Source: Candidatus Daviesbacteria bacterium RIFCSPHIGHO2_02_FULL_43_12
GTDB lineage: Bacteria; Patescibacteriota; Microgenomatia; Daviesbacterales; UBA10151
Length of the DNA: 64,000 nt
Assembly (NCBI GenBank): GCA_001776775.1
Contig: MFDD01000014.1
Span: 126,053 to 190,052, forward strand
Direction of reading: 5' to 3'
Shown here: piece after piece, positions 3,589 through 45,355 of the stretch
How positions within the stretch are numbered: position 1 is the stretch's first letter
Layout: the number at the start of each line of letters is the position of its first letter
Position numbers and translations under genes: made by a program
The notes under the pieces: generated by a model
Seen by the model: the letters and a program-made list of their open reading frames with translations, nothing else
Databases searched by the model: none
Told to the model about the DNA's origin: nothing

Positions 3589-6036
3589 TTATCTTTTGGT
3601 GGATTTTTCTGGAGTGGAATCTTGTTTAGCTGAACTTTCATCTTTTTCAAAGCTTTCTCGGACATTATTGATTGCCTCTTGAATAAATTCATCAGTAAAG
3701 ACTCTATCGGTAAAGATACCTTTATAGACTTGGTCCCCTTTACTGCAGTATTTATCGGAAATCTCGCCCGTTAAATTAGTATGCATAATTTTGCGAATGA
3801 ACTCTAACCGTTCTCGACCATCCATCTTTTTTTGCTGAGAAGCAATTCCGAGTGCAAAACATAATTTTTGATATGCACTCTCTTTAATCATATCCCCTAG
3901 AGCTATTCCTCCAGCTTTGATAAACTCTCCCCTCCTTTTATCTAAGGCGATCTCTGCTACTCCATTGTCGGTGGTAGCGATAATACAGATCGGTTTATGG
4001 TAGGAGTTGACTGCTGTGGCGATATAATATTTCATCTGCATCGGCATATTCGCCTCGTCGTAACCTCCAACTAAGATAGCGGAGATATCATCTGACTCGA
4101 CATAACTTTCAAATTGCTTAATATCCACGGCACTAATACATTCAAAATAAGCCACTTTTTGGTTGAAACCAGTAAACAAATTAAAGGGTCTCTTTTTAAC
4201 TCCATCCAAAATATCAATAATCTCCACATGATGGCTCAGGGTTCCCGCCAAGGGATGTTTTTCAATCGGAGCAAAGGCATTAATACCGTGTTCATCTTCT
4301 TTGACTACCGTCGTTCCGATCATCAGCTTATCCCCAAAAGCCACTTTGACCCCAGCCTTAGCACGGCTTTCTTTGGGCTGCTCTAATCTGGCAAAGATCG
4401 CTTTAATCGATTTAACAAAATTGCGATCAAAGTCGGAAGATCCAAATCCGGGTTTTTGAGCTCCAGTTAAAATGACATCTTTATCAATACCCACCAACAT
4501 GTAGGAGATCGCAGCGGCAGTATAGGCTAGAGTGTCAGTACCATGCAAAACAACTACTCCATCATATTTATCGATGTTTTTAGCTATCACTCTTGCTAGC
4601 TGAGCTCTATAGCGATGCTCCATATTCGAGCTATCAATATTAACTAGCTCTAGATAATCTAGGGAGGTTAGCCGATCAATTCCCTTAAGTTTGACGTCAA
4701 ACAGCTCTTGGAGAGTTTTCTTGGTAGGAGCGAGCACGCCTTCAAGGTTAGGTTCTTGGAAAAAAGTTCCCCCAAGCGAGATCGTTAAAATCTTATATTT
4801 ACTAGTCTTAGATTTACAATAAGTTTTTATATCATTACTAAACGCCTGGTCTTCTTGGGGTTTAAAGAAGCTATCTAAAGTCGGGGCCGTTTTAATAAAT
4901 TGATCCCTGGTGTTATTGACCATATGCCGAGAAAAGGTATCGGGGATCTCTTCAGCCACTGCTGTCAGTAAAAGACGGCTGGCGTCTTGGAGTTTTCTAA
5001 ACTTATCCTCCCCTTGAGCATTGCTTAGGGCATATCTCATTTTTTCGATAGCGGCTGGTTTAACCATTGGCCCCAAAGAGATTGCTCCAGCTTTAACAGC
5101 CACCGCCCCCACATCATAAAGCCCCATGTCCGAGGAACCCTTTTTACAATTAGTGATTACTCCGATTAGTTTGGCTTTTTCATAAACTGCTCTATAGATT
5201 AAAGGAATTAACTTAGCTGGACAGTTTCCAGCCCCAAAAGCTCCGATAATAATCCCTTGGATTGTGTCGTCCGTAACCAGCTGTTCAAAGCTGCCTAAAT
5301 GAGTTTCCGAGACCAGGTCAAAATAGGCGACATTTACGTTGGTGTTATAGGAGTAGTTGACCTGAGACGGTTTACGAGGTACTGCATGAGAGCTAATCTT
5401 GACGGTCCATCCAACATCCCCAATTTTTGGAACTCGAGGAGAGAGGATTGGATTATTGGAACGAGTTCCCCGGTTAGTTGCTACCGTCGCTCGAGTTAAA
5501 GAGTCATCGAAAAGGATCGCTACTTCTCCAACTGATGGAGCGTTGACATCTTTAGCGCCCATTAAAGAAACTTTGATGGCGTTAGGTAAGTTGAGCCGAA
5601 AGTCTGAGTCTGGATCCCGGGCACTTTGGGTTGCTCCGGTAAAAATAACCGGTGCCCCTAAACCTCGTAGAGCAAAGGCCGTCGCGCAAGTGTAATAGGC
5701 TGCCACATCCATCCCTCCGATAACTACAAAACCATCATAGTCATTTTGGTAATCTTTAATGGTTTTAGCGATATCGGCAATTTCAAAAGAGGTGAGATCT
5801 GCACTATCTTTTTGACTAAGAGCCAAACAGTCAATCCGACCCGCTTCGTCTTTGAGATACGGAACCAAATCTAAGGACTCTCGGAGATTAAAGTTAAGAT
5901 CTTCGGTCGGACGTTCTATCCCCAAGCCTCCCAGAGAAAGAACCAATACCTTGCCGTCTTTATGCGGATTCTCCGAATAAGTAAAAATTTTATTAGTCAT
6001 AACTGGGTTGTGAGTACTAAAATTAAAAAGTCCCAT
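3589..6036 (-). CDS. 815-aa protein with two tandem asparaginase/GatD-like domains (probably non-canonical)
   Basis: The C-terminal half carries VVLHGTDTLAYTAAAISYML (the asparaginase HGTDTM-type motif), VILTGAQKP (TGAMRP-like) and ILVGGYDEANMP (GxGxGN-P-like). The N-terminal half shows the same order in degenerate form (LSLGGLGI; VVIGGMDVAAYYTCATAF; VIFTGATQSARDPDSD; IIIGAFGAGNCP). The nucleophilic Thr of TGGTIAG is not conserved in either copy. Confidence 0.5.
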   Translation of the reverse strand: MGLFNFSTHNPVMTNKIFTYSENPHKDGKVLVLSLGGLGIERPTEDLNFNLRESLDLVPYLKDEAGRIDCLALSQKDSADLTSFEIADIAKTIKDYQNDYDGFVVIGGMDVAAYYTCATAFALRGLGAPVIFTGATQSARDPDSDFRLNLPNAIKVSLMGAKDVNAPSVGEVAILFDDSLTRATVATNRGTRSNNPILSPRVPKIGDVGWTVKISSHAVPRKPSQVNYSYNTNVNVAYFDLVSETHLGSFEQLVTDDTIQGIIIGAFGAGNCPAKLIPLIYRAVYEKAKLIGVITNCKKGSSDMGLYDVGAVAVKAGAISLGPMVKPAAIEKMRYALSNAQGEDKFRKLQDASRLLLTAVAEEIPDTFSRHMVNNTRDQFIKTAPTLDSFFKPQEDQAFSNDIKTYCKSKTSKYKILTISLGGTFFQEPNLEGVLAPTKKTLQELFDVKLKGIDRLTSLDYLELVNIDSSNMEHRYRAQLARVIAKNIDKYDGVVVLHGTDTLAYTAAAISYMLVGIDKDVILTGAQKPGFGSSDFDRNFVKSIKAIFARLEQPKESRAKAGVKVAFGDKLMIGTTVVKEDEHGINAFAPIEKHPLAGTLSHHVEIIDILDGVKKRPFNLFTGFNQKVAYFECISAVDIKQFESYVESDDISAILVGGYDEANMPMQMKYYIATAVNSYHKPICIIATTDNGVAEIALDKRRGEFIKAGGIALGDMIKESAYQKLCFALGIASQQKKMDGRERLEFIRKIMHTNLTGEISDKYCSKGDQVYKGIFTDRVFTDEFIQEAINNVRESFEKDESSAKQDSTPEKSTKR

Positions 6037-6086: not shown

Positions 6087-7661
6087 TCATTTATAAGACT
6101 CATCTAAGCCTAGATTTTCTTCTATAACTCGGTCAATTAAAGCTTCCCCAGGGGAGAAGAGGATTAACCTTCTTCTTTGGGACAGAGTTGTTTCGAAATA
6201 AGGTTCGGTAAATTTTTTAGCGATAAACTCTGGATCAGCTGAGGCTACTGGAGCCCAGAGAGACGGGGCTTTCGATCGATTCTTTTTCCACTCCTCAACC
6301 ATCTTAGCAAGTTCAGTTGCACCATTGACAACCACAACCGTAGGTTTTCTTAAAGCCTCTCTACCCTCTTCGGGCTCCCCCCAAACTAGATCGTCAAATT
6401 TATCTCGTAAATGGCGTCTTAATATCACCTCAACGAGCTGAAAGTAGCGAGCAATGTCTGGAAGGGTAGTTTTAGCGTCCTTAATTAGACCTTCCATGGT
6501 TTTTTGTGTTTCATTAGAAACAGGAACGGCTCTGTCTAAGATTCTCCCAGCAAAAGCCGATGTTTTAGGATCGTAATTGGAAGAAAGACCAAGCAAAACG
6601 ACCTGTGCAACCTTTATGTCGTAATCGGTTAGTCCTTTTAGAAACTTTTCTGTCGTCTCTCTTCTTCCTCTATAGTGAATGCCCTCAACCCCTCTTAAGG
6701 TGTCGCCTAATACTCCATCTCCAGCTGTAGAAGAGACAACCCAGGTTTCATTAGACCCTGCATGCTGGGCCGCCTTTTTAGCTATCTGCTGCTGCAGTAG
6801 TAAACCATATTCTCCAGTATCAATGGTTCTTGCCATAAATGGAATTGACTCTGAAATAACTGCTAAATCTGATCTATCTCCATAATATTCACCCACCTCT
6901 ATTAGCCTCTCCCGAGATCTATCTTTTAGTTTTAAGGCTAGTTCGTCTGGATCTTTGGCATTGTCTCCTCCTAAAATTCTAATCGCTGAACGCCGGTAAA
7001 TCCTTCTTTTCTCTGAACCAGGTTGACTGATTAGAAATGTAGGTGGTTGATCGACTCCGTAATAGCTTCTTAAATAGCTTCTGATATCAAACTCCACATA
7101 CATCCGCGGATCTCCTGAGCTGGTTAAGACAAAGTCGTCTCGAGGATAATCTGCACCTTGCACTAAGTCCATATCAAAAATATGATGGGGTTCAACTCTT
7201 ATAGAGGATCCTGCGGCGGTTACTTTCTCTACTTCAGCAATGAATGGATTAATAGTACCGTATTGAAGACTGAACTCTTCTAGGTTAGCTAAAGCTAAAC
7301 CTTCTGGGTCTATCCCAAGCTCCAGGGCAAGCTTTTTAACGTCTACTTTACGATCTTGTCTTAAGTGAGCAATGACCAGCTCCTCTTGTGGGGTTGTATA
7401 GGCAATAGATTTGATAGGACGCCAGGGTTCCACTCCCTCTTGTCTTAAGTAAACTGCCCGTTTTTGATTATCTTTACCGGAACTTGATTCACCTTGATAC
7501 TGACCAAAAAAATAATGGATCCGGTGTTGAAGTCTTAAAGCGAAAAAAGCTGCAGACACTTTGTGGAATTTGTCTACTATTTTATTATCGGGTGTTAAAC
7601 CGATTTTCTCCGGTCGAAAATTTCCGGTTGGTAAATATTGCTCAGTGATTTCCCTTTGCAT
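6087..7661 (-). CDS. 524-aa protein with an N-terminal YbaK/ProX-like aminoacyl-tRNA deacylase domain and a large unknown C-terminal region
   Basis: ELVIAHLRQDRKVDVKKLALELG...LQYGTINPFIA resembles the YbaK/ProRS-editing fold (LAVAV...LDLKKVAKALG...GGISPLG). The remainder has no family I can name. Confidence 0.4.
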   Translation of the reverse strand: MQREITEQYLPTGNFRPEKIGLTPDNKIVDKFHKVSAAFFALRLQHRIHYFFGQYQGESSSGKDNQKRAVYLRQEGVEPWRPIKSIAYTTPQEELVIAHLRQDRKVDVKKLALELGIDPEGLALANLEEFSLQYGTINPFIAEVEKVTAAGSSIRVEPHHIFDMDLVQGADYPRDDFVLTSSGDPRMYVEFDIRSYLRSYYGVDQPPTFLISQPGSEKRRIYRRSAIRILGGDNAKDPDELALKLKDRSRERLIEVGEYYGDRSDLAVISESIPFMARTIDTGEYGLLLQQQIAKKAAQHAGSNETWVVSSTAGDGVLGDTLRGVEGIHYRGRRETTEKFLKGLTDYDIKVAQVVLLGLSSNYDPKTSAFAGRILDRAVPVSNETQKTMEGLIKDAKTTLPDIARYFQLVEVILRRHLRDKFDDLVWGEPEEGREALRKPTVVVVNGATELAKMVEEWKKNRSKAPSLWAPVASADPEFIAKKFTEPYFETTLSQRRRLILFSPGEALIDRVIEENLGLDESYK

Positions 7662-7838: not shown

Positions 7839-8495
7839 ATGATTAAAGCGGCTGATGCGGTATTACAACTCCTTAAAAACGACGAGATCGCCCTGGAATC
7901 TTTTCGGGAAAGTATTCTTAACTTAAGTGCTTATGCAACTAAGATTCAGAAAAGTGTTGAGAAATTAACTTATAAACCGGTTAAAAAGGGAACTATTGTG
8001 GTAGCCTTATCCCGGCTTTCCAAATCAGACTTAAAGGCTTCCCAAAAACCCGAGATAAAAATTAATCATTTAAGCACCCGCTCGCCGGTCATCTCTTATA
8101 CTTACCAAAAAACTTTCGACACTCAAAGACGGGTTTCTACGCTTAACCCTTATCTCGTGACTCCAACGGACTTATTTGGAATTATCGAAGGAGAAAGTGA
8201 GATCATCATCATTGTGTCCGAGAAAGCGGTCGATTTAGTTAAAGACCATATCGGAGTTATCCCAAAAAGAGAAGTTGCCAATCTGGTTGGGCTAACAGTC
8301 CAGTTCTCCGATAAAATACCCAGCCAAAAGGTTTTACAATCGCTTTTAAGCTTACTCTCAACACATCAGGTTAATATTGAAAATATTCTACCAGGAATGA
8401 ACGAGATCTCCTTTATCATTGCTCAAAACAGCCTGGAGCAGGCAATCTCAGCTCTAAATTTATATACTATTAAAAAGGAGTCAGCTGGTGGTTAA
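7839..8495 (+). CDS. ACT-domain-like protein (resembles aspartokinase regulatory domains)
   Basis: ANLVGLTVQFSDKIP...VNIENILPGMNEISFIIAQN...AISAL follows the aspartokinase C-terminal ACT pattern (ISVVG.GM...INI.MIS.SE..ISFVV). It has no kinase domain. Confidence 0.35.
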   Translation: MIKAADAVLQLLKNDEIALESFRESILNLSAYATKIQKSVEKLTYKPVKKGTIVVALSRLSKSDLKASQKPEIKINHLSTRSPVISYTYQKTFDTQRRVSTLNPYLVTPTDLFGIIEGESEIIIIVSEKAVDLVKDHIGVIPKREVANLVGLTVQFSDKIPSQKVLQSLLSLLSTHQVNIENILPGMNEISFIIAQNSLEQAISALNLYTIKKESAGG

Positions 8496-8967
8496 TCCTA
8501 AGACGCCTGATTCAATATTAGTGATATTAACCGGAGGACGGATTGATTCTGTTTGGGACGGCGGGATTGATGAAATTGTGGTGGCCAAACATTCAGTGAT
8601 CCCGGAGTATTTTAAGGAACTAAAGACTGAGGGATTAGAGTTTAAAGAAGTTTGTATGAAAGATTCTAGAGCCCTAGTGCTGGAAGATCGTATAGCTATT
8701 TTGCAGGCAATTGAACAAAGTCATACTAATAAGATCCTGATTACTCATGGAACTCATACGCTACCAGACACTATTGAGTTTCTAAACAAACATCTCAAAG
8801 ATAAGTCAAAGACTATTGTCTTTACCGGATCATCAACACCATTAAAAGACTTTAAATCCTCTGATGCAGCTTTGAATCTAGGATATGCCCTAGCTAAAGT
8901 TGAAGATTTACCGGCTGGACTGTACTTTTGTGCAAATAACCAGACTACTCCTGCTGAAAGAATCTGA
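8488..8967 (+). CDS. Stand-alone asparaginase/GatD N-terminal-domain-like protein (159 aa), GTG start
   Basis: ILVILTGGRIDSV (TGGTIAG-like), ILITHGTHTLPDTIEFL (HGTDTM-like) and IVFTGSSTPL (TGAMRP-like). A GGAG RBS lies 8 nt upstream of the GTG. It overlaps the upstream gene by 8 bp. Confidence 0.45.
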   Translation: MVNPKTPDSILVILTGGRIDSVWDGGIDEIVVAKHSVIPEYFKELKTEGLEFKEVCMKDSRALVLEDRIAILQAIEQSHTNKILITHGTHTLPDTIEFLNKHLKDKSKTIVFTGSSTPLKDFKSSDAALNLGYALAKVEDLPAGLYFCANNQTTPAERI

Positions 8968-23927: not shown

Positions 23928-24287
23928 GTGTCAACTTTAGTAACGCTTGTATTATTTGGAATACTTAGTGCTCTATTTGCCAATCAAAATACGGGCACAG
24001 CCACGTTACATTTAGGGTATATTACTCTCGCTAATATTCCTCTGTATTTAATAATTCTTGGGTCAATGTTATTTGGACTGCTGATGGCTTGGGTAATTAA
24101 TATTATTGAATCGGTACTAGTTTCTTTTCAAATTATGGGTAAAAATAGAGCGATCAAAGCTACCCAACAAGAGGTCGATGAGCTTTCGAAAAAGTTGCAA
24201 GAAGTGGAGATTGAAAATGCCCGGCTCAAAGGCGAGGATACAATGATCGTTAAAAAAACTATCGAAGATCAAACAGCCTTAAGCTAA
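23928..24287 (+). CDS. LapA/DUF1049-like small membrane protein
   Basis: Two TM helices followed by a coiled-coil tail (ATQQEVDELSKKLQEVEIENARLK), the LapA-domain architecture. Confidence 0.4.
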   Translation: MSTLVTLVLFGILSALFANQNTGTATLHLGYITLANIPLYLIILGSMLFGLLMAWVINIIESVLVSFQIMGKNRAIKATQQEVDELSKKLQEVEIENARLKGEDTMIVKKTIEDQTALS

Positions 24288-24294
24288 ACCGCCT

Positions 24295-27200
24295 TCAGAT
24301 CATCAATCCTCGTAGCTCACAATATTCGCAGGTCGGTTCTTGACACCGACGATCCCAGAAATCGAGATTAATAATTTCTTTAGCTACTTGCAAAATCATG
24401 GTTTCTAAAGTTGCGACCTGCTCGGAGGTTATCTCAAAACTTTCACTACGAATTTTACCCTTGACATCCGACTCGACAAAATCTATTACCCCTTCTTTCA
24501 TCTCCATTTTCCCTTGATAGTATTTATCAATTAGTAATTTATAAAAAACCAGCTGTCTTAAATAGTCTCCATTACTATCTCCAGTTTTTCCCTCTATCTC
24601 TCCTCTTGACCGAGGCTTACCTGTTTTAAAATCAAAGACTCTGACATGTCCTTTGGAATCTATTTTTTCAATCATATCGACAACTCCATTAATTATGACG
24701 TCGTCAGTTAGTCTAACTCCTTTAATTACCACTTCACTTTGCACTCCTTTATTCCAACGGGTAATTCTTTGGTCAAAGTAATTTTGTAATACTTTTTGAC
24801 CCTTCTTAAGCAGATCTTCAAAATCTTTTTCAGCTAGAGGCTCCCTTGCTAGGGCGTCGATAAATCCTTGAATGAGCAAGGTGTTGGAAGCGTCACCCTG
24901 GTTGAGATGATTAATATAGTTTTGCAGGGCTTTATGAATGGCTGTACCGAACATTCTGCTACGATCTTTAATCTCTGGTAAGAGCAGCAGGTTTCGATAA
25001 AAAAATCTCCATGGGCATTTTAAATAATTATTTAATCCACTAACTGACAAGCCTCTTTCCAGAAAAATCTCCTTAAAGAACTCCATATCCTTGACTCTTG
25101 ACTCTTGACTCTTGACTCTTGGTCTGAAAATTTGCTCTTTCCGAGAAGAAAAATCTTCTTGAAACGAAGTTGTATCCTCTATTCTCTTATACTTATCCTC
25201 TATTTCTCCTATAAACTGTGCGGGTAGCTGCTCTTTTCCCTCTAGGGATTTCGAGGAATAGGAGATAGTTACTCCCTTTTTGGCTCGAGTTAAGGCCACA
25301 TAAAACAACCGTCTCTCATCTTCATTTTGTTCAATGTCTATTCCTAATTTAAGCTTGACTCCAAAATATTCCCAGGGAATAGCAATACCCGAAGACCTTC
25401 TTCTCATGTTTCCCCAGTGACCATTAAAGCAATTAATAATATATACATATTCAAACTCCAAGCCTTTGGATTTATGAGCAGTCATCAGTCTGACGTAATC
25501 TTGTCGAGGGGTTTGGGTGGGACATTTAATTAAGATATCGTGTTCTTTGAGCAAATTTAAGTAAGCCAAAAAGTCTGTTAAATTAAACTGAGGATTTCTC
25601 ATCACTTGTAACTTAATCTCTTCAAAAAGAATAGTTAGCTTTTCGATAATCTCTATGGAACTAGGTTGAGTTAAAATGTAATCAAGAAGTTTTGAATCAT
25701 TGAGCACCGATACAAATAGAGTTTCGAGGTTATCGTTTTTACTTTGAATCTGCCAATTTTCCAGCAACTTATAAAACGTGGTTATTCCTTCTTTTTCTAT
25801 CCCAACCAAATTCAAAATCTCGGATTTAGTAACTATTTCAAAAACAGATAGCTTACTCGCTCTGGCATACTTCATTAATTTATACAGATCTAGGGGTTTA
25901 ATTCCTAAAAAATCAAGATGCAGCGCTGGTATAAGATAGGCATCTTCGCCGTAAAAAGCCACTGCTTCAAGAAGCATTAAAAACTTTCTAACAGATGCGT
26001 CAGCAAAAATATTTTGGTCGGCTTCAACACTATACTTGACTCCTGCCTGCTCTAAGACACTGGCTAAAATAATTAAATCCCGGTTATTTCGGGCTAGTAC
26101 TGCGATCTCTTTTGGAGCAATTCCAGCAGTTATTTTTTCTCCAATATCTTTGGCATAAAAGTAATACTCGCTGTAATAGTCGGTAAACTCTATAAGTCTG
26201 ATTGGCTCTTCCGGGTACTTGCTACTTGACTGCAAGGCAACTCTTTCCGGCATTAAATCTGAGATAATATTTATTTTTATAACCGATCCCGCAGCATCCA
26301 GAATAGTCTGAGTAGAACGATAATTAAAGTTTAGATTAATTAAGATTGCTTTAGGATAGAGCTTTTTGAAATATAAAAAATTCTCTAGGGATGCTCCTTG
26401 AAATCTGTAGATCGCTTGTTTTTCATCTCCCACTACAAAGAGATTAGGATTTTCATAAAAGTTGCACAGTAGCTCAACCAATTTATTTTGAGCAGTGTTG
26501 GTATCTTGATGTTCGTCGACTAAAATATATTGATATCTCTCCTGCAGACGAAGCAGCAATTCTTTGTTAGTAGATAGAGCTTTAACTACTTCCAGTAACA
26601 TATCATTAAAGTCGTAGAGTTTTTTTGTTTGCAGTGCTTGTTGATATGCTGTATATATAATAAGTAGCTCTTTTTGTTTATTTATATCTCGCAAAGTCTC
26701 TGAGTACTTGCCTTTCATCTGCCCTTTGTAGGCCCCCTTTTCGTGATACAGATCTTTGATAATTGCGAAATCTTTTTCTTGAGCGATAATCCCCTCAGCA
26801 AAATCCGTCACCGAGACTCCTTCTTTTTTTAAATCATTAATCGCCGATAAACTATATTTTAGATAATAGAGAGGATCTCCGAAGGGTTTAAGTAGCTCTA
26901 GCGAAGATTGATTGATGATCTCTTCTAGTAGTTGGATCTGTTCGATCTCCGTCATACTAGTAGCGGAAATCAGGTGCGGGAAATCTTCAGGATTATGTTT
27001 GATTACCTCACTTCCAAAAGAATGAAAGGTGGTAATCTCCACTTTGTAGGCCAAAGTACCAATAATTTCGGCTAAACGCTTGCGCATGGCTAGCACCGCT
27101 GAATCAGTAAAGGTTAGAGCTAAAATATTATCTGGATTAACCTGAGTTTGCAGTAATATATTGGCAATCCGCAGCGTCAGGATCTGAGTTTTGCCAGTCC

Positions 27201-27321
27201 CCGGACCAGCTATCACCATTACTGGACCTTCGATAGAGTCAACTGCCTGTTTCTGTTGTGGGTTCAAGTTCCTGTAAGCTTTTCTGAATTCAAAGGTTTC
27301 CATCTGTTTGGGGGTCTTCAA
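24295..27321 (-). CDS. UvrD-like helicase fused to a C-terminal PD-(D/E)XK (Cas4/AddB-like, FeS) nuclease domain
   Basis: N-terminal VMVIAGPGTGKTQILTLRIANIL and VDEHQDTN are helicase motifs. The C-terminal GVVDMIEKID...VFDFKTGK and YLRQLVFYKLL (QxxxY) are nuclease motifs. Cys ligands CPWRF...CQEPTCEYC fit a 4Fe-4S cluster. Confidence 0.65.
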   Translation of the reverse strand: MKTPKQMETFEFRKAYRNLNPQQKQAVDSIEGPVMVIAGPGTGKTQILTLRIANILLQTQVNPDNILALTFTDSAVLAMRKRLAEIIGTLAYKVEITTFHSFGSEVIKHNPEDFPHLISATSMTEIEQIQLLEEIINQSSLELLKPFGDPLYYLKYSLSAINDLKKEGVSVTDFAEGIIAQEKDFAIIKDLYHEKGAYKGQMKGKYSETLRDINKQKELLIIYTAYQQALQTKKLYDFNDMLLEVVKALSTNKELLLRLQERYQYILVDEHQDTNTAQNKLVELLCNFYENPNLFVVGDEKQAIYRFQGASLENFLYFKKLYPKAILINLNFNYRSTQTILDAAGSVIKINIISDLMPERVALQSSSKYPEEPIRLIEFTDYYSEYYFYAKDIGEKITAGIAPKEIAVLARNNRDLIILASVLEQAGVKYSVEADQNIFADASVRKFLMLLEAVAFYGEDAYLIPALHLDFLGIKPLDLYKLMKYARASKLSVFEIVTKSEILNLVGIEKEGITTFYKLLENWQIQSKNDNLETLFVSVLNDSKLLDYILTQPSSIEIIEKLTILFEEIKLQVMRNPQFNLTDFLAYLNLLKEHDILIKCPTQTPRQDYVRLMTAHKSKGLEFEYVYIINCFNGHWGNMRRRSSGIAIPWEYFGVKLKLGIDIEQNEDERRLFYVALTRAKKGVTISYSSKSLEGKEQLPAQFIGEIEDKYKRIEDTTSFQEDFSSRKEQIFRPRVKSQESRVKDMEFFKEIFLERGLSVSGLNNYLKCPWRFFYRNLLLLPEIKDRSRMFGTAIHKALQNYINHLNQGDASNTLLIQGFIDALAREPLAEKDFEDLLKKGQKVLQNYFDQRITRWNKGVQSEVVIKGVRLTDDVIINGVVDMIEKIDSKGHVRVFDFKTGKPRSRGEIEGKTGDSNGDYLRQLVFYKLLIDKYYQGKMEMKEGVIDFVESDVKGKIRSESFEITSEQVATLETMILQVAKEIINLDFWDRRCQEPTCEYCELRGLMI

Positions 27322-28438
27322 TCACTAATTCAATTTCTTCAAACTCTAAACTTTTTATATCTGCCATTGGTTCATCAATAAGTCCTGACAAAGATCCGTG
27401 CATTGAAAGAGTATTATTTTTTAACCTTTCAATTTCTTTGTCTCTTTGGGCCCAAATTTTCTGCATGACCATTTTTTCTTTATCTAAGGTCTGCTGCATT
27501 TTAGAATAGGTTTCCAGCATTGAGTCTATTCTTTGAGCAAATTCAGAACTGGTTATATATCTATAAAGAGATTCTATTTTTTCATTTTTTCCTACAGACA
27601 GAGCTTTTGTTTGTGCTATATCCAGTAAACTTTTGCGTAAGATGAACGCAACCTGTAGCACACAATCGAAACTTGTTATATACACGCCATCTTTTTGAGT
27701 AAAGAACTTAGCACCAGAGGGCAAAATTGTTGAGACAATTACCGATACATCTGCTTTTGCCTCTCTCATATCTTCTTTTAATTTAACAATCCATTCCTCC
27801 GTAAATGCCTTTGTCCTTTTGCTCTCCCAGATAATCTTGCCCGCATCTCTTCCGATCTGATCTTTTACAAGTTGCACTAAATCCGCGCCTCTTACACCTT
27901 TCCCAACTTCGCTTAATTCATCAATAGGGAATTCGCGTTTTAATATTTCCATAAGCTCCAGCTCCATTACCTCACCTTGAAGCTGTTGAGAACCAACTGA
28001 GGCTTTTCTTTGAGCCTCATCCAAGGATTTTTTTAGAGATTCTATCAGCTGATCTTTTTCTTTCTCCTTTAAATGAAACTTTTCAGTGACCTCCGTTTCT
28101 GTTTTCTCCTGGATTTTTTTTCTTTCTTCATCGATTTGCCTTTGCATTTCCAGCTCCAAATTTTTTTCTTTTTCTTCTAATTCCTGAGCTTTCTTTCTTA
28201 AAATTAACTCGTTTTCTCTAAACGTCTCAATCTCTTTCTTGTTTTTTGATAATTGCTCCTGAAGTTCTAATTTTTCTTTTTGGGATTGCTCCGATAGTTG
28301 TAGTTTTAGAGATATGTATTTTTGATTATATTCATCCCGCAGGTCTCCTTTGACCGATTCCTCAATCTGATGACGTAGCACCTCGTCAACTGAGATTTGA
28401 GTATGGCACTTTGGGCACTGAATAGATGAAACGCTCAT
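27290..28438 (-). CDS. Zn-ribbon / long coiled-coil / C-terminal PD-(D/E)XK-like (DUF2130-like) protein
   Basis: N-terminal CPKCHTQ zinc ribbon. About 130 aa of E/K/Q-rich coiled coil. The C-terminal GADLVQLV...GKIIWESKRTK shows a D...ExK motif. It overlaps the helicase-nuclease gene by 32 bp. Confidence 0.45.
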   Translation of the reverse strand: MSVSSIQCPKCHTQISVDEVLRHQIEESVKGDLRDEYNQKYISLKLQLSEQSQKEKLELQEQLSKNKKEIETFRENELILRKKAQELEEKEKNLELEMQRQIDEERKKIQEKTETEVTEKFHLKEKEKDQLIESLKKSLDEAQRKASVGSQQLQGEVMELELMEILKREFPIDELSEVGKGVRGADLVQLVKDQIGRDAGKIIWESKRTKAFTEEWIVKLKEDMREAKADVSVIVSTILPSGAKFFTQKDGVYITSFDCVLQVAFILRKSLLDIAQTKALSVGKNEKIESLYRYITSSEFAQRIDSMLETYSKMQQTLDKEKMVMQKIWAQRDKEIERLKNNTLSMHGSLSGLIDEPMADIKSLEFEEIELVIEDPQTDGNL

Positions 28439-28519
28439 GGGAAATAGTACCCCATTCTAAGCTTTACGCCCGCTTAAAACAACCATCCAAATCTTCCTTT
28501 AATTAGGTACAATTAAGCT

Positions 28520-28894
28520 ATGCGGGTACTGAAGAATTTTCTGTTAGTCGTGATCTCTTTGATCTCATTTCTGCTGGTAATCTGGAGAGTGCCAGCCCCT
28601 AACTCTTGGACTGAGGCTAGCATCTGGCAAATTGTAATCTTTATGATTCCTTTGCTGGCCTTAATCTTTTCGTTAATATATTTGATTCTTAAAAAATTCA
28701 CTGTTTGTTTCTTGATTAGTTTGGGGGTGCTGCTGACTTTGGTTTTAAAAATTATTGATCAGTTAAGCTGGCTTACCGGAATCCTCACTTGGATGATCTT
28801 TACCCTGCTACTTGTCTATTTTTTCAAACAACGTTTGACATCTGATAAAAGAATTCCTAAACTATCTACATCAGAAGGGAGCCGCCGTGAATAA
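28520..28894 (+). CDS. Small integral membrane protein (hypothetical)
   Basis: Four predicted hydrophobic helices. It sits immediately upstream of and overlapping the metG start. Confidence 0.3.
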   Translation: MRVLKNFLLVVISLISFLLVIWRVPAPNSWTEASIWQIVIFMIPLLALIFSLIYLILKKFTVCFLISLGVLLTLVLKIIDQLSWLTGILTWMIFTLLLVYFFKQRLTSDKRIPKLSTSEGSRRE

Positions 28895-30302
28895 ATTTTA
28901 TATAACATCAACACTTCCATACGTCAATTCAGATCCCCATCTCGGATTTGCTTTGGAAATTATTCTTGCAGATTTTATTGCACGATACCATCGACTTCTT
29001 GGGGAAGAAGTAGTATTTAATACCGGCACCGATGAACACGGGATTAAGATCTATCGGGCCGCACAGGCTCAAGGAAAGGAGCCACAAGCCTATGTGGATG
29101 AATACGCAGCCAAATTTAGTCAACTTAAGGAAGCTTTAAACTTAAGCTATACAAACTTCATTAGAACATCCAGTATAAACCATAAAAAGGCCGCGCAAGA
29201 GTTCTGGAAAAGATGTAAAGAGAGTGGAGATATTTATAAACAAGCTTATAAGATAAAGTACTGCGTGGGGTGCGAGCTAGAGAAAACAGCTTCAGAATTA
29301 GACAATGAAAGATGTCCAATTCACCCAAACTTAGAAGTAGAAACGATTGAGGAGGAGAATTATTTCTTTAAATGGTCCAAATATCAACAGCCACTTTTAG
29401 ATTTTTACGAAAAGAATCCCGATTTTGTTGTACCAGATTTCCGTTTTGATGAAATTAAGAAATTTGTTAAAGAGGGTCTTCATGATTTCAGCATCTCAAG
29501 ATTAAAAGAGAAGATGCCCTGGGGGGTGCCTGTTCCTCATGATCCTGACCATGTAATGTTTGTCTGGTTTGACGCCCTCGTTAGTTATATATCTACACTG
29601 GAATGGCCCGATGATGAGAAAAATTTCAACGATTTCTGGCCTGGAATGCAAATAGCAGGAAAGGATAATTTAAGACAACAATCCGCAATGTGGCAAGCAA
29701 TGCTCCTGTCTGCTGAATTACCTAATTCAACACAAATAGTTATTCATGGTTTTATTACCAGCAATGGTCAGAAGATGAGTAAGAGTCTCGGAAATGTAGT
29801 TAATCCCTATGAGGTTGTGGAAAAATATGGGACTGATGCCCTGAGATATTGGGTTGCAGCACAAGCAAATCCTTTTGAAGATAGTGACTTTACCTGGGAA
29901 AAATTTCGGGAAGATTATAACGCAAACCTTGCTAATGGGTTAGGCAACTTAGTGTCGAGAGTCGCCAAGCTCTGTGAGAAAAATAGTGTCAGCGCTCCAC
30001 CACCACCAACTCAGTTTGATCCCCAATTAGAAGCACCCTTAAAAGAGTTTAAATTTAATGAGTGTTTGGCACATCTTTGGGGAGAAATTAGTGAGGCAGA
30101 TAAAAGAGTCAACGAAACCAAACCCTGGGAGCTATCTGCTAAAGAGTCTCAACCGGTTCTTAAAGAATTAGTGGAGAAAATCCAACATATTGCTTTTAAT
30201 TTGCAGCCATTCTTACCAGAAACTGCTGAGAAAATCCTCAAACAATTTTCCGGAGAGATTAAATCGAGTGCTCCACTTTTTCCGCGAGTAGAGAATGTTT
30301 AA
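28887..30302 (+). CDS. metG: Methionyl-tRNA synthetase (short form)
   Basis: LPYVNSDPHLGFALE is HIGH-like (class I aaRS). The Zn knuckle CVGCELE...CPIHP and the KMSKS loop (QKMSKSLGNVV) are present. Size 471 aa. Confidence 0.85.
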   Translation: MNKFYITSTLPYVNSDPHLGFALEIILADFIARYHRLLGEEVVFNTGTDEHGIKIYRAAQAQGKEPQAYVDEYAAKFSQLKEALNLSYTNFIRTSSINHKKAAQEFWKRCKESGDIYKQAYKIKYCVGCELEKTASELDNERCPIHPNLEVETIEEENYFFKWSKYQQPLLDFYEKNPDFVVPDFRFDEIKKFVKEGLHDFSISRLKEKMPWGVPVPHDPDHVMFVWFDALVSYISTLEWPDDEKNFNDFWPGMQIAGKDNLRQQSAMWQAMLLSAELPNSTQIVIHGFITSNGQKMSKSLGNVVNPYEVVEKYGTDALRYWVAAQANPFEDSDFTWEKFREDYNANLANGLGNLVSRVAKLCEKNSVSAPPPPTQFDPQLEAPLKEFKFNECLAHLWGEISEADKRVNETKPWELSAKESQPVLKELVEKIQHIAFNLQPFLPETAEKILKQFSGEIKSSAPLFPRVENV

Positions 30303-30765
30303 AAACCTACAACAAGACGAGAACGAGATTTTTTACATTGGGGTCAAGGCTCTCATTAAAAACTCATTGGGTCAAATTCTGGTAGTCCACGATACACCTC
30401 GTATAAAAGTTGATGGTCGGTCGGAAACCTACTGGGATATTCCGGGAGGACGAGTACAACTTGACGAAAGAGCTTTAGTGAACACTCTCAAAAGAGAGAT
30501 CGAAGAAGAGCTCGGTATTACAAATTTAAAAGTCGGCAAACTTTTTGATTGCACTATCTCTAATCACTACTCCGAGTTTGATGAGAAGAGACGGGTGGCT
30601 CTTTGTTTAGTAGTCTATCTTTGTCAGATTCCCGATTACACAAAGATCATTTTAAGCACGGAGCACGACGACTTCGAATGGGTCTCTACCCCGGATGCTG
30701 CCATCAGACTCGAGAATAAATACTCAAAAGAATTTACCAAAAAAGTGGCTTCTCTACATGAATAG
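30295..30765 (+). CDS. NUDIX hydrolase
   Basis: GGRVQLDERALVNTLKREIEEELGI matches the Nudix box GX5EX7REUXEEXGU. Confidence 0.7.
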   Translation: MFKNLQQDENEIFYIGVKALIKNSLGQILVVHDTPRIKVDGRSETYWDIPGGRVQLDERALVNTLKREIEEELGITNLKVGKLFDCTISNHYSEFDEKRRVALCLVVYLCQIPDYTKIILSTEHDDFEWVSTPDAAIRLENKYSKEFTKKVASLHE

Positions 30766-31633
30766 TTATACTGTACATAAACTAACTGACTCACACGCCC
30801 ATTTATACTTTGATAAACTCAGAGATCAACTAGATTTGGTCTTAGAAAATGCTGTGGCAAATGGCTTGGGAATAATCATTAATGTTGGGGTTGATGTTGA
30901 GACATCGAAGGAAGCAGTTAGACAAACAATAGATTTCCGCCTTCGCGGGAATGACAAGGAAAGCGGGAATAACAGTTTAAAAATTTATTCAACAATCGGG
31001 ATTCATCCCCATGAAGGAGTTAACTACCCGACAAAAGAATCGGAGATCCAAAATGATCTTGAAGCATTAAAGGATCTTTACTTGAATAACCAGTCACTAG
31101 TTGTAGGAATTGGAGAATGTGGTTTAGACTTTTTCTTTGAACATAATGCAGGTTTTGTTGAGTCTGGGTTGATAGTTGAAGAAAAGAAAAAATCTCAGAT
31201 GAGGCTTTTTGAAGCTCAAATTGTCTTGGTTAACGAACTTCAGCTGCCTTTAATAGTCCATTGTCGTGATGCTTGGACAGAGATGCTACCTTATTTAAAT
31301 CAATTTAATGGAGTTTTGCATTGCTATAGCGGGAATACCAAAATTACCAAACAAGTTTTAGAGACTAACCTGTATATCTCTTTTGCTGGAAATATAACTT
31401 ATCCTAAAAATGACTGGTTAAGAGAGTCTTTAAAAATGATTCCCCTAGAGCGCGTACTGATTGAAACTGATTCTCCCTTTTTGGCTCCTCAATCAAAAAG
31501 AGGTCAGCCTAATGAACCGGCTAATATTAGAGAAGTAGCCGAACGTGTTGCCCAAGTTAAAGGAATTTCTGTTGAGGAAGTGGCTAGACAAACTACTCAG
31601 AATGTAATAAAGGTTTTCAACTTGAATGCGTAA
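30758..31633 (+). CDS. tatD: TatD-family metal-dependent hydrolase
   Basis: LTDSHAHL at the N-terminus, GIHPHE, IGECGLDF and IETDSPFLAP are the TatD motifs. I placed the start at the internal ATG 30758, giving an 8-bp overlap with the Nudix gene. Confidence 0.8.
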   Translation: MNSYTVHKLTDSHAHLYFDKLRDQLDLVLENAVANGLGIIINVGVDVETSKEAVRQTIDFRLRGNDKESGNNSLKIYSTIGIHPHEGVNYPTKESEIQNDLEALKDLYLNNQSLVVGIGECGLDFFFEHNAGFVESGLIVEEKKKSQMRLFEAQIVLVNELQLPLIVHCRDAWTEMLPYLNQFNGVLHCYSGNTKITKQVLETNLYISFAGNITYPKNDWLRESLKMIPLERVLIETDSPFLAPQSKRGQPNEPANIREVAERVAQVKGISVEEVARQTTQNVIKVFNLNA

Positions 31634-32264
31634 AAACTATATTCCTGCCTTTAATTTTGACTTTTTAACACCATTCTATGATTTACTCTTAGAGTTAATC
31701 GGTTACGGATACACTCAACGAATAAAGGTAGTTAAATTACTAAAGCTAAGAGGTGGCGAGAAGTTACTAGATGTTGGATGTGGTACTGGCACACTTCTTC
31801 AAGTTGCTAAACAGTTACACCCTGAAGTTAACATGTTTGGAGTTGACATAGATAATAATGTTTTAAGTTTGGCTAGAAAAAAGGTAAACAAAAATAAACT
31901 CCAAATAGCGTTTACTCAAGCCAGCGCTAATAATCTTCCCTTTAAAGACCGGACCTTTGATATTGTAGTTAGTACCTTAATTTTTCATCATTTACCCACA
32001 CAAGTTAAGATTCAAGCAATCTCTGAAATTTATAGAGTTCTTAAACCAAAAGGGAGATTTCTACTGGCCGATTTCGGGAGAAATAATAGTTTTAGCATAA
32101 AGCTTTGGAGCGCCCTAGCTCATTTAATCAAGTTACCTGAGGCAATTACCATAGAAGATAATCTTTCAGGATTTATACCTAATTATTTAGAGAAGGCTGG
32201 ATTCAAGATCATGGAAGTAGCACCAGTTTATAAAGGAATTCAGTTTTTACTGTGTACTAAGTAA
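31626..32264 (+). CDS. Class I SAM-dependent methyltransferase (UbiE/COQ5-like)
   Basis: LLDVGCGTGTLL is motif I. VVSTLIFHHL and GRFLLADF are the post-I/II motifs. Confidence 0.7.
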   Translation: MRKNYIPAFNFDFLTPFYDLLLELIGYGYTQRIKVVKLLKLRGGEKLLDVGCGTGTLLQVAKQLHPEVNMFGVDIDNNVLSLARKKVNKNKLQIAFTQASANNLPFKDRTFDIVVSTLIFHHLPTQVKIQAISEIYRVLKPKGRFLLADFGRNNSFSIKLWSALAHLIKLPEAITIEDNLSGFIPNYLEKAGFKIMEVAPVYKGIQFLLCTK

Positions 32265-32734: not shown

Positions 32735-32795
32735 TTATAAAATGAGTATACCAGAGATATCTCAATTTGATTTCTGAGCTCAGTTTGAGCTACAC

Positions 32796-44857: not shown

Positions 44858-45355
44858 CTAGAGATTAAAGCTTGTGACTTCTGTGACCTGATTACCAAGT
44901 TGCTGATAAACTTTCTTCAGATCCTCTCCTCTAGCTTGGATTGTTTGAGTAGGATAGAGCGGACTAAAGAGTAGCCATTCTTGTTCATAGATTTGTGGAT
45001 CAATATAAATTGGATATTGTTCATTAAAACCAAAGGGATAAGCACAACCCGGTTCAGCTCCAAAATTGTCCATTAACTCCTCCTGAGTAGCCAGTCTTAC
45101 TTTAGTAGCATTTAAGACTTCCTTCATATTTTCAAAATTTACTTTTTGTCCTTGGATGGTAATATAGACCAGAAAGTTATCATCAGCTTTTAGAACTAGA
45201 CATTTCCCCTCTGTTCCAATGAACCCTGTTTCTTTTTGGACTGCTGCTAAATCTTCATACGTCAAAGCTGCGCGATGCTTAAGTAGTTTATATTCCACTA
45301 CTGAGTCGTTCATTAGTTGAATAATTCTTTGATAGATTGCCTGTTGATCAACCAT
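44858..45355 (-). CDS. YbaK/EbsC-family aminoacyl-tRNA deacylase
   Basis: GKCLVLKADDNFLVYITIQGQKVNFENMKEVLNATKVRLATQEE...PGCAYPFGF follows the YbaK/ProX pattern, including the GxxPFG loop. Confidence 0.6.
   Translation of the reverse strand: MVDQQAIYQRIIQLMNDSVVEYKLLKHRAALTYEDLAAVQKETGFIGTEGKCLVLKADDNFLVYITIQGQKVNFENMKEVLNATKVRLATQEELMDNFGAEPGCAYPFGFNEQYPIYIDPQIYEQEWLLFSPLYPTQTIQARGEDLKKVYQQLGNQVTEVTSFNL

What the first reader, a model, noticed from the sequence alone, without database searches (positions are those of the whole stretch)
6087..7661. Novel fusion: YbaK/ProX-like deacylase domain attached to a ~350-aa uncharacterised domain
Residues ~80-160 of the 524-aa protein follow the YbaK/ProRS-editing pattern (…VDVKKLALELG…YGTINPF…). 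The remaining two thirds have no match to the usual YbaK partners (ProRS, Cys-tRNA deacylase) that I can recognise. A second, conventional stand-alone YbaK (44858-45355) exists elsewhere in the window, so this copy is probably specialised.
Basis: partly seen in the sequence, partly recalled or inferred. Interest (0 to 1): 0.6.

Follow-up and report, generated by a model that had tools for sequence, protein, structure and literature searches.

The report
YbaK-like deacylase fused to cysteine-less racemase domain
This candidate-phyla bacterium encodes a real, undescribed two-domain protein, a tRNA-editing-type hydrolase domain joined to an aspartate-racemase-like domain that has lost its catalytic cysteines, and its relatives are almost always encoded next to asparaginase genes, pointing to an unknown asparagine/aspartate-handling module.

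Summary
The 524-aa ORF (6087-7661, minus strand) is real. It is identical to a hypothetical protein of Candidatus Daviesbacteria. Residues ~45-205 are an INS/YbaK-superfamily editing fold. The query alone is sub-threshold in Pfam, but all 14 close family members hit PF04073, and Foldseek gives TM 0.73-0.81 to YbaK/ProX. Lys84 and the G135xxxP139 loop are invariant.

The "uncharacterised" C-terminal part (~226-520) is an Asp/Glu-racemase fold. Both catalytic cysteines are replaced (Ser311, Ala448), so it is not a canonical racemase.

The protein belongs to a Patescibacteria clade of a wider family with the same YbaK-like + racemase-like architecture. I found no paper describing it. In 36 of 38 well-flanked loci an asparaginase-family gene lies beside or near it, and one relative is a direct fusion. 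In CPR relatives the order is short asparaginase, this gene, aspartokinase-homoserine dehydrogenase. In other bacteria the partners are STAND-type ATPase-asparaginase fusions and TIR proteins.

In the window, a tandem asparaginase lies 50 nt downstream and a degenerate short asparaginase lies upstream.

Best guess (inferred): it is an Asx-directed aminoacyl-ester (tRNA) hydrolase or binder that works with asparaginase. The fusion is genuine and interesting, but its function is untested.

The parts
6087..7661 (-). Whole gene: 524-aa YbaK-like + racemase-like fusion protein (identical to NCBI hypothetical protein A2631_04615, Candidatus Daviesbacteria)
7530..7661 (-). N-terminal leader, aa 1-44. 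Partly conserved in the family (P17, F39, L42 invariant among the 7 closest homologues). Low model confidence for aa 1-20.
7047..7529 (-). INS/YbaK-superfamily aminoacyl-tRNA-editing fold, aa ~45-205
   Evidence: Pfam PF04073; PDB profile hit to the ProRS INS domain; Foldseek hits to 1dbx, 1wdv, 2z0k; hhalign of N-domains E=3e-30
7410..7412 (-). Codon of Lys84. It aligns with the conserved Lys of the ProRS INS 'IIKSV' motif (the E. coli K279A mutant is editing-defective).
   Evidence: PMC3973320
7242..7259 (-). G135-T-I-N-P139-F140, the GxxxP loop of the editing pocket. G and P are invariant in 14/14 family members.
6987..7046 (-). Inter-domain linker, aa ~206-225, containing invariant R220
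6102..6986 (-). Asp/Glu-racemase-fold domain, aa ~226-520, lacking both catalytic cysteines
   Evidence: Foldseek hits to 5ell, 3ojc, 5wxy, 2zsk; hhalign of C-domains E=4e-13; A3 relatives hit PF01177 and 3ojc/1jfl
6729..6731 (-). Codon of Ser311, at the position of racemase catalytic Cys 1 (Cys82 of 1jfl). Ser in 13/14 of the clade.
6318..6320 (-). Codon of Ala448 (in G-A-T-E-L), at the position of racemase catalytic Cys 2 (Cys194 of 1jfl, G-C-T-E). Never Cys in the clade or in the wider family.
3589..6036 (-). Probable partner, 50 nt downstream on the same strand: an 815-aa tandem type-I asparaginase. The N-terminal unit is degenerate (SLGGLG, GGMDV). The C-terminal unit has canonical GGT and HGTDT motifs.
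8488..8967 (+). 159-aa short asparaginase (N-domain only). It is the orthologue of the 166-167-aa gene that precedes the fusion gene in CPR relatives, but here the catalytic motifs are degenerate (TGGRID, HGTHT).
7839..8495 (+). 218-aa protein, divergently transcribed, overlapping the short asparaginase by 8 nt. Its C-terminus weakly resembles the aspartokinase ACT domain.
   Evidence: all weak: E 0.005-0.011

Best explanation
Shown: the gene encodes a two-domain protein. The first domain is an INS/YbaK-type aminoacyl-tRNA-editing fold that keeps the catalytic Lys and the GxxxP loop. The second is an Asp/Glu-racemase-fold domain that has lost both catalytic cysteines. The protein is the Daviesbacteria member of a Patescibacteria clade within a wider, undescribed 'YbaK-like + aspartate-racemase-like' family. 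The conserved genomic partner of that family is an asparaginase-family enzyme.

Inferred: the protein works together with the asparaginase on an asparagine/aspartate substrate. The thiol-less racemase-fold domain acts as an Asx-binding, specificity or docking module, not as a racemase. The YbaK-like pocket binds and hydrolyses an aminoacyl ester, most plausibly the Asn- or Asp-charged 3' end of a tRNA. The asparaginase deamidates the released Asn. In CPR relatives the resulting L-Asp would feed the aspartokinase-homoserine dehydrogenase encoded immediately downstream.
For: Architecture:
- Pfam PF04073 hits 14/14 clade members, and the family profile hits ProRS INS.
- The AF2 model (pLDDT 82) matches YbaK/ProX at TM 0.73-0.81 and Asp/Glu racemases at TM 0.70-0.75.
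- hhalign to the PF01177-positive wider family gives E=1.4e-37 overall. Per domain it gives 3e-30 and 4e-13, and cross-domain controls give probability <=0.5%.

Likely catalytic competence of the N-domain: K84, H99, D103, G135 and P139 are invariant. In the wider family the Lys is K in 41 and R in 5 of 46.

Loss of racemase chemistry: the Cys1 site is Ser in 13/14 and the Cys2 site is Ala or Val. In the wider family Cys1 is kept in 35/46 and Cys2 is never present.

Link to asparaginase:
- An asparaginase-family gene is adjacent in 33 of 38 well-flanked loci and within the locus in 3 more.
- P0061 fuses AAA_16 + asparaginase + YbaK-like, and a separate racemase-like gene follows it.
- In the window, a tandem asparaginase lies 50 nt downstream on the same strand.

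Link to aspartate: the order short asparaginase, this gene, AK-HSD (then ASADH) occurs in four clusters that are <50% identical to each other, P0003, P0005, P0006 and P0007.
Against: - No activity was tested. tRNA as the substrate is inferred only from the fold and the retained Lys/GxxxP.
- The query alone scores below the Pfam threshold.
- The window copy departs from its clade at five near-invariant or majority-conserved positions (D49H, G102Q, G131S, S234N, P305E).
- Its short asparaginase partner has lost the nucleophile Thr and the Asp of HGTDT.
- No AK-HSD gene lies in the 64-kb window.
- Two clade members show no asparaginase neighbour. L076 sits between dnaG and rpoD. L075 has little flank.
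- Non-CPR relatives sit with STAND ATPases and TIR proteins, which suggests a conflict role rather than metabolism.
- SadB shows that a YbaK-like domain can be a non-catalytic adaptor.
Confidence: 0.4

Rival explanations
1. Non-catalytic sensor or adaptor. Both domains serve as ligand- or protein-binding modules, as in SadB (YbaK-like + HDOD). The protein would sense Asp/Asn and regulate the partner asparaginase or aspartokinase rather than hydrolyse anything.
For: Both racemase cysteines are lost. SadB is a structurally verified YbaK-fold adaptor. An ACT-like protein is encoded next door. Relatives associate with STAND ATPases, PP2C and TIR signalling-type partners.
Against: The Lys and the GxxxP loop of the editing pocket are strictly conserved across both clades. 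That is hard to explain without catalysis or specific ester/phosphate binding. The wider family keeps one catalytic Cys in 35/46.
Confidence: 0.22
2. Component of a conflict (anti-phage or abortive-infection) system. On a trigger it depletes asparagine and/or Asn-/Asp-tRNA. The deacylase strips the tRNA, the asparaginase destroys Asn, and the one-base racemase-like domain (plus DAO in some loci) removes L-Asp.
For: In non-CPR relatives the operon is AAA_35/AAA_16-asparaginase, then asparaginase, then the fusion protein. TIR genes occur in 11 loci and the ATPase in 19 loci. The TIR gene directly downstream matches the PADLOC defence candidate PDC-S35 at E=1e-40. TIR_2 and DAO flank the pair in L009.
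Against: The core components hit no PADLOC model. None was found on viral contigs or plasmids. The window and CPR loci lack STAND and TIR genes and sit among housekeeping or aspartate-pathway genes. Defence-island adjacency can be coincidental.
Confidence: 0.15
3. Ordinary ProRS-type trans-editing factor (Ala-, Cys-, Ser- or Thr-tRNAPro deacylase). The extra domain merely helps tRNA binding or dimerisation, as the plant ProXp-ala CTD does.
For: The best sequence match is the ProRS INS editing domain. There is precedent for an appended domain in ProXp-ala-CTD.
Against: This does not explain the near-obligate asparaginase neighbour or the fusion in P0061. A conventional stand-alone YbaK already exists in the window. 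The protein scores far below the YbaK equivalog cut-off (12.7 against 153 bits).
Confidence: 0.08
4. Active epimerase or lyase with non-thiol chemistry. The racemase-fold domain would use Ser311 or water to abstract the acidic alpha-proton of an aminoacyl ester held by the YbaK-like domain, giving racemisation, elimination or cyclisation of Asx-tRNA.
For: Ser311 is conserved in 13/14. The YgeA/3ojc-type racemases already carry Thr at the Cys1 site. The wider family is a one-Cys variant. From general knowledge, the one-Cys arylmalonate decarboxylase belongs to the same superfamily.
Against: No member has any residue at the Cys2 site that could act as a base; it is Ala, Val or Leu. No precedent is known to me.
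Confidence: 0.08
5. Decaying or neofunctionalised copy in this particular genome. The Daviesbacteria locus would be a remnant of the CPR operon.
For: The query is the odd one out at five conserved positions. The short asparaginase has lost catalytic residues. AK-HSD is absent from the window, and only an ACT-like fragment-sized ORF is present.
Against: The ORF is intact and full length. The key Lys and GxxxP are kept. An identical protein is seen on 15 contigs. An intact asparaginase unit is supplied by the adjacent 815-aa gene.
Confidence: 0.07

Closest known systems
YbaK / ProXp free-standing trans-editing deacylases (INS superfamily; e.g. H. influenzae YbaK 1dbx, T. thermophilus ProX 2z0k, APE2540 1wdv)
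   Same: Same fold for aa ~45-205 (Foldseek E~1e-6, TM 0.73-0.81). The conserved Lys and the GxxxP loop are retained.
   Different: The known families are single-domain proteins (PMC11295145). This protein carries a ~300-aa racemase-fold domain and a conserved N-terminal extension. It scores far below the YbaK equivalog cut-off. It is genomically tied to asparaginases, not to ProRS.
INS editing domain of bacterial ProRS (E. faecalis 2j3l)
   Same: Best sequence-level match of the family profile (E=7e-5). 'VE.WRILKSV...RGDR.VD...G.GT..P' aligns with 'VEPQRIIKSV...RGDHDVN...GFGSIGP'.
   Different: It is not inserted in a synthetase, and no aminoacylation or anticodon-binding domains are present.
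Aspartate/glutamate racemase superfamily (P. horikoshii AspR 1jfl, E. coli YgeA/EcL-DER 5ell, Y. pestis 3ojc, McyF 5wxy)
   Same: Same fold for aa ~226-520 (TM 0.70-0.75). Homology is traceable through PF01177-positive relatives.
   Different: Both catalytic cysteines are replaced (Ser311, Ala448). There are extra helices and one extra beta-alpha unit. The query gives no Pfam PF01177 hit.
SadB of Pseudomonas aeruginosa (9qzk; YbaK-like + HDOD)
   Same: Another multi-domain protein with an N-terminal YbaK-like fold (Foldseek E=3.8e-4). It shows this fold can be recruited to non-editing roles (PMC12075610).
   Different: Its C-domain is an all-helical HDOD, not a racemase fold. The match covers the N-domain only (TM to target 0.25).
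GatD subunit of archaeal GatDE (asparaginase-fold glutaminase working on a tRNA-bound substrate)
   Same: It is a precedent for an asparaginase-family enzyme acting with a partner that holds an aminoacyl-tRNA. The neighbouring 815-aa protein scores 205 bits on the GatD model.
   Different: That score is below the GatD cut-off (324 bits). No GatE/GatB-like kinase partner is present. The partner here is a hydrolase-type fold, so amidation is not implied.

Membership tests
INS/YbaK aminoacyl-tRNA editing superfamily (Pfam PF04073) | Significant match to the family profile | tested here: inconclusive
   The query alone gives E=4.4e-4, 20.8 bits, below the gathering score of 25.5. All 14 clade members match at E<=0.1, best 3.9e-15. 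P0002 scores 25.6 bits.
INS/YbaK aminoacyl-tRNA editing superfamily (Pfam PF04073) | YbaK/ProX three-dimensional fold | tested here: met
   The AF2 model (pLDDT ~90 over aa 80-170) matches 1dbx, 1wdv, 2z0k, 2cx5 and 2dxa at E 1e-6 to 1e-5, TM to target 0.70-0.81.
INS/YbaK aminoacyl-tRNA editing superfamily (Pfam PF04073) | Conserved catalytic or positioning Lys (E. coli ProRS K279) | tested here: met
   K84 aligns with the Lys of 'IIKSV' in 2j3l and is invariant in 14/14. K279A is the standard editing-defective mutant (PMC3973320).
INS/YbaK aminoacyl-tRNA editing superfamily (Pfam PF04073) | GxxxP substrate-binding loop | tested here: met
   G135-T-I-N-P139, with G and P invariant in 14/14. 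It aligns with 'GFGSIGP' of 2j3l. The role of the loop is taken from my own knowledge of the family.
INS/YbaK aminoacyl-tRNA editing superfamily (Pfam PF04073) | Hydrolysis of a mischarged aminoacyl-tRNA | not testable with these tools
   This needs a deacylation assay.
YbaK proper (Cys-tRNAPro deacylase, TIGR00011 equivalog) | Score above the equivalog cut-off | tested here: not met
   12.7 bits against a cut-off of 153.25.
Asp/Glu/hydantoin racemase family (Pfam PF01177) | Significant match to the family profile | tested here: not met
   No PF01177 hit for the query, its C-terminal 304 aa, or any of the 14 clade members. 29 of 46 wider-family relatives do hit, best 9.2e-15.
Asp/Glu/hydantoin racemase family (Pfam PF01177) | Two-lobed racemase fold | tested here: met
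   Foldseek hits to 5ell (TM 0.75), 3ojc (0.70), 5hra (0.74) and 2zsk (0.66), E 5e-5 to 7e-4. hhalign of the C-domain to PF01177-positive relatives gives E=4e-13.
Asp/Glu/hydantoin racemase family (Pfam PF01177) | Pair of catalytic cysteines (Cys82/Cys194 of 1jfl) for two-base proton transfer | tested here: not met
   In the query these sites are Ser311 and Ala448. In the clade they are Ser 13/14 and Ala/Val.
Known anti-phage defence systems (PADLOC-DB v2) | Match of the protein or its window neighbours to a defence-system model | tested here: not met
   No hits for the query, the 815-aa, 159-aa or 218-aa neighbours, or P0020, P0021 and P0061. Only accessory TIR genes of distant relatives match.

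The most novel reading that the evidence does not exclude
The pair 'asparaginase + YbaK-like/racemase-like protein' is the catalytic core of a previously unrecognised system directed at asparagine or at Asn-/Asp-charged tRNA. In free-living bacteria it is wired to STAND ATPases and TIR proteins as a new amino-acid- or aa-tRNA-depleting immune system. In Patescibacteria it has been domesticated, with cysteines lost and a short asparaginase, as the entry step of the aspartate-to-homoserine operon.
Probability: 0.15. Interest if true: 0.85.

Novelty: new variant of a known kind. Interest (0 to 1): 0.65.

Why it matters
INS/YbaK editing domains are regarded as single-domain proofreaders of prolyl-tRNA synthetase errors. 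This finding would widen that view in three ways:

- There is a conserved clade fused to a catalytically disarmed aspartate-racemase fold and locked to asparaginases.
- That would extend the superfamily to a new substrate sphere (Asn/Asp).
- It would give a second example, after GatD, of an asparaginase-fold enzyme cooperating with an aminoacyl-tRNA-binding partner.

It could also explain how amino-acid-poor Patescibacteria feed their aspartokinase pathway. The STAND/TIR-linked relatives are a concrete, clonable candidate for a new type of defence system based on amino-acid or aminoacyl-tRNA depletion.

Tried and rejected
- Structure prediction with a 2-sequence alignment gave an unusable model (pLDDT 33). 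The 14-sequence alignment fixed this.
- A second word-indexed homologue search with the family alignment returned only the same two proteins and was wasted.
- The search for related loci failed on the 14-sequence alignment because it had no conserved stretch. With 7 sequences it found only two GTDB genomes.
- Viral contigs held no relatives.
- Plasmids held only a stand-alone racemase.
- PADLOC gave no hit to the core proteins.
- SadB as a homologue is rejected. Only the N-domain matches, and its C-domain is HDOD.
- The clade consensus 'GGDS..DT' resembles a GDSL/SGNH block I by eye. I rejected this because the fold search and hhalign place it at the racemase 'GGMGPE' position, and the query has N instead of S.
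- The ~290-aa gene upstream of the CPR operons is not homologous to the window's 218-aa ORF and is probably not part of the module.
- The 189-aa ORFs next to the window cluster and next to L075 are unrelated.
- Five literature searches for the fusion or the operon found nothing relevant.
Full report
**1. Observation**

The window has an intact ATG-initiated ORF on the minus strand at 6087..7661, encoding 524 aa. The protein is 100% identical to NCBI 'hypothetical protein A2631_04615' of Candidatus Daviesbacteria (Patescibacteria/CPR) and is seen on 15 contigs.

The second, conventional YbaK at 44858..45355 also exists, on the minus strand. It is 165 aa and matches PF04073 over the full profile at E=2.3e-17.

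**2. N-terminal domain**

For the query alone the evidence is weak:
- Pfam tRNA_edit gives E=4.4e-4, 20.8 bits, against a gathering score of 25.5, covering aa 73-140.
- NCBIfam YbaK gives E=0.08 and ProRS gives E=0.14.
- A PDB sequence search finds nothing meaningful.

The word-indexed protein search found only one other homologue, P0002 (36% identity, full length). An exhaustive HMMER scan of 1.84 billion cluster representatives found 77 proteins at E<=1e-3, 13 of them full-length relatives of 520-700 aa.

At family level the evidence is strong:
- All 14 members of this clade (alignment A2) match PF04073, best E 3.9e-15.
- The clade profile hits the INS editing domain of E. faecalis ProRS (2j3l) at E=7e-5. 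'VE.WRILKSV...RGDR.VD' aligns with 'VEPQRIIKSV...RGDHDVN'.
- An AlphaFold2 model built on A2 has mean pLDDT 82 and pTM 0.69. A first model on two sequences was useless (pLDDT 33).
- Foldseek against the PDB puts YbaK/ProX structures first: 1dbx, 1wdv, 2z0k, 2cx5, 2dxa and 8huz, at E 1e-6 to 1e-5 and TM to target 0.66-0.81.

K84 is invariant in 14/14. G135 and P139 of the GxxxP loop are invariant. F140 is F in 10 and L in 4. H99, D103, D165 and G183 are also invariant. K84 aligns with the INS lysine. The K279A mutant of that lysine in E. coli ProRS is the standard editing-defective enzyme (PMC3973320). The domain covers roughly aa 45-205.

**3. C-terminal domain**

The query's C-terminal 304 aa hit no Pfam family. 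The wider set of hits (alignment A3: 46 proteins, mostly 430-490 aa) carries both domains. PF04073 is found in 31/46 and PF01177 Asp/Glu/hydantoin racemase in 29/46, best E 9.2e-15. The A3 profile hits PDB aspartate racemases: 3ojc at 2.2e-15, 1jfl at 3.8e-11, and 5ell at 1.4e-10.

Profile-profile alignment links the two sets:
- A2 against A3 overall: 99.95% probability, E=1.4e-37, 401 columns spanning both domains.
- N-domains alone: E=3.4e-30.
- C-domains alone: E=4.2e-13 over 241 columns.
- Cross-domain controls: probability <=0.5%.

Independently, the AF2 model's second half matches E. coli YgeA (5ell, TM 0.75), 3ojc (0.70), 5hra (0.74), McyF and PH1733 at E 5e-5 to 7e-4. The 'uncharacterised ~350 aa' is therefore an Asp/Glu-racemase fold, aa ~226-520, with extra helices and one extra beta-alpha unit near the C-terminus.

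**4. Active site of the racemase-like domain**

The two catalytic cysteines of P. horikoshii AspR (in 'PCNTAH' and 'GCTE') map to defined columns.

| Set | Cys1 site | Cys2 site |
|---|---|---|
| Query | Ser311 (VVSSTAG) | Ala448 (GATEL) |
| A2 clade (14) | Ser in 13, Ala in 1 | Ala in 9, Val in 3, never Cys |
| A3 wider family (46) | Cys in 35 | Leu, Ser, Met, Gly; never Cys |

No member of either clade can be a canonical two-thiol racemase. The wider family is a one-base variant and the CPR clade is thiol-less. 3ojc has Thr at the Cys1 site, so hydroxyl substitution at that position has a precedent.

**5. Genomic context**

In the window the gene is followed after 50 nt, on the same strand, by an 815-aa tandem type-I asparaginase (3589..6036). 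TIGR00519 gives 250.6 bits, PF00710 gives E 9e-59, and the GatD model gives 205 bits, below its cut-off. Its N-terminal unit has degenerate motifs (SLGGLG, GGMDV). Its C-terminal unit has canonical GGT and HGTDT.

Upstream and divergent lie two more genes. One is a 218-aa ORF whose C-terminus weakly resembles an aspartokinase ACT domain (E 0.005-0.011). The other overlaps it by 8 nt: a 159-aa asparaginase with the N-domain only and degenerate motifs (TGGRID, HGTHT).

Relatives in the CPR clade:

| Locus (protein) | Gene order |
|---|---|
| L002/L004 (P0005), L003, L006 (P0003), L077 (P0006), L078 (P0007) | 166-167-aa asparaginase N-domain with canonical TGGTIDS/HGTDT, then the fusion gene |
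| P0003, P0005, P0006, P0007 loci | followed by bifunctional aspartokinase-homoserine dehydrogenase |
| L004, L078 | AK-HSD followed in turn by aspartate-semialdehyde dehydrogenase |
| L079 (P0013), L074 (P0011) | full-length asparaginase adjacent |
| L076 (P0014) | gene sits between dnaG and rpoD, no asparaginase seen |
| L075 (P0012) | too little flank to judge |

Sources.

A metagenome scan with a wider-family alignment returned 64 loci. I called ORFs on these and searched them with an asparaginase HMM. Of 38 loci with at least 1.6 kb on both sides, 33 have an asparaginase-family gene within 300 nt, nearly always on the same strand. Three more have one within the locus, and two have none.

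The typical non-CPR operon has three genes: AAA_35/AAA_16 ATPase fused to asparaginase (730-890 aa), then a ~505-aa asparaginase, then the fusion protein, sometimes with a C-terminal PP2C. P0061 fuses AAA_16 + asparaginase + the YbaK-like domain in one 1081-aa protein, and a separate racemase-like gene follows it.

Other recurrent neighbours:
- TIR genes in 11 loci. Five of these are a TIR gene directly downstream that matches the PADLOC candidate PDC-S35 at E~1e-40.
- The ATPase in 19 loci.
- DAO-family oxidase in 3 loci.
- An unknown ~440-aa protein in 12 loci.

The partner asparaginases mostly keep the catalytic motifs.

**6. Interpretation**

What is shown:
- The domain architecture.
- Retention of the editing-pocket residues.
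- Loss of the racemase cysteines.
- The near-obligate link to asparaginase genes, including one direct fusion.
- In CPR, the link to the aspartate-to-homoserine operon.

What is inferred:
- The protein acts with an asparaginase on an Asn/Asp substrate.
- The racemase-fold domain supplies Asx binding or docking.
- The YbaK-like pocket hydrolyses or holds an aminoacyl ester, most plausibly Asx-tRNA.

GatD is the only other well-known use of the asparaginase fold besides free-amino-acid hydrolysis, and it is also a tRNA-linked enzyme. This makes a tRNA-linked role attractive but does not prove it. I give this model about 0.4. The rivals are: non-catalytic sensor or adaptor of the SadB type (0.22); conflict-system effector (0.15); ordinary ProRS trans-editing factor (0.08); non-thiol epimerase or lyase acting on an aminoacyl ester (0.08); and a locally decaying copy (0.07).

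Several points count against a smoothly functioning canonical module in this particular genome. The window protein is the outlier at D49H, G102Q, G131S, S234N and P305E. Its short asparaginase is catalytically degenerate. No AK-HSD gene lies within the 64 kb.

**7. Comparison with known families, and novelty**

The INS superfamily is currently described as ProRS INS plus eight single-domain trans-editing families. Appended domains are known only for plant ProXp-ala-CTD and Plasmodium ProXp-ala-ProRS (PMC11295145). SadB (YbaK-like + HDOD) is a different fusion.

Five literature searches found nothing on a YbaK-racemase fusion or an asparaginase-YbaK-racemase operon. Database names are only 'YbaK/EbsC', 'aspartate racemase' or 'hypothetical'. 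PADLOC has no model for the core proteins. None is found on viral contigs or plasmids.

I rate it a new variant of known kinds: two known folds in a new, conserved combination and operon. There is a modest chance that the module as a whole is a new kind of system.

**8. Verdict**

Interest 0.65.

Noticed in passing
window 3589-6036 (-): An 815-aa protein made of two complete type-I asparaginase units in tandem. The N-terminal unit has lost the nucleophile motif (SLGGLG for TGGT, GGMDV for HGTDT). The C-terminal unit is canonical. It may be a built-in heterodimer of a regulatory and a catalytic unit.
   Followed up: partly
window 8488-8967 (+) and 7839-8495 (+): A short asparaginase (N-domain only, 159 aa) with degenerate catalytic motifs (TGGRID, HGTHT). 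Its orthologues in five related loci are canonical. It overlaps by 8 nt a 218-aa ORF whose C-terminus weakly resembles the aspartokinase ACT domain.
   Followed up: partly
L010-L073 (metagenome loci of the wider family), e.g. L022 2226-7323, L023 2147-9057, L059 1841-7668: The non-CPR relatives form a recurrent operon: AAA_35/AAA_16 ATPase-asparaginase, then a ~505-aa asparaginase, then YbaK-racemase (sometimes with PP2C). TIR genes are often adjacent, including one matching the PADLOC candidate PDC-S35 at E~1e-40. This is possibly an undescribed defence system.
   Followed up: partly
L009 1373-6451 and L030: A variant cluster in one direction: a TIR_2 protein, a full asparaginase (412 aa), the YbaK-racemase (458 aa), and a DAO-family FAD oxidase (416 aa). 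This order is suggestive of an Asn to Asp to D-Asp to oxidation sequence.
   Followed up: no
L078 5877-6494: A MazE-Fic toxin-antitoxin pair is inserted between the fusion gene and the aspartokinase-homoserine dehydrogenase gene of an otherwise conserved CPR operon.
   Followed up: no
L076 4067-8779: In one clade member (P0014) the fusion gene sits between dnaG and rpoD, inside the classical macromolecular-synthesis operon, with no asparaginase nearby.
   Followed up: no
L074 6001-8091 (P0011): This clade member has an extra ~230-aa N-terminal extension with no Pfam annotation.
   Followed up: no
L042, L047, L048, L050, L052, L053, L055, L057-L061 (e.g. L058 4744-6117): A ~420-460-aa protein with no Pfam or PADLOC match recurs next to the fusion gene in 12 loci.
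   Followed up: partly
window 43367-44743 (+): A 458-aa protein with a C-terminal OmpR/PhoB-type winged-helix domain (PF00486, E 1.5e-11) and a long N-terminal region without any Pfam match. It lies convergent to the stand-alone YbaK.
   Followed up: partly
window 44858-46363 (-): The conventional stand-alone YbaK overlaps the stop/start of two upstream ORFs. By eye these carry a Nudix box and a HAD-type DxD motif, suggesting a small housekeeping operon. The neighbours were not checked with a profile search.
   Followed up: no
window 24001-34000: G+C drops to 0.37-0.40 against 0.41-0.46 in most of the window. This may be a region of different origin.
   Followed up: no
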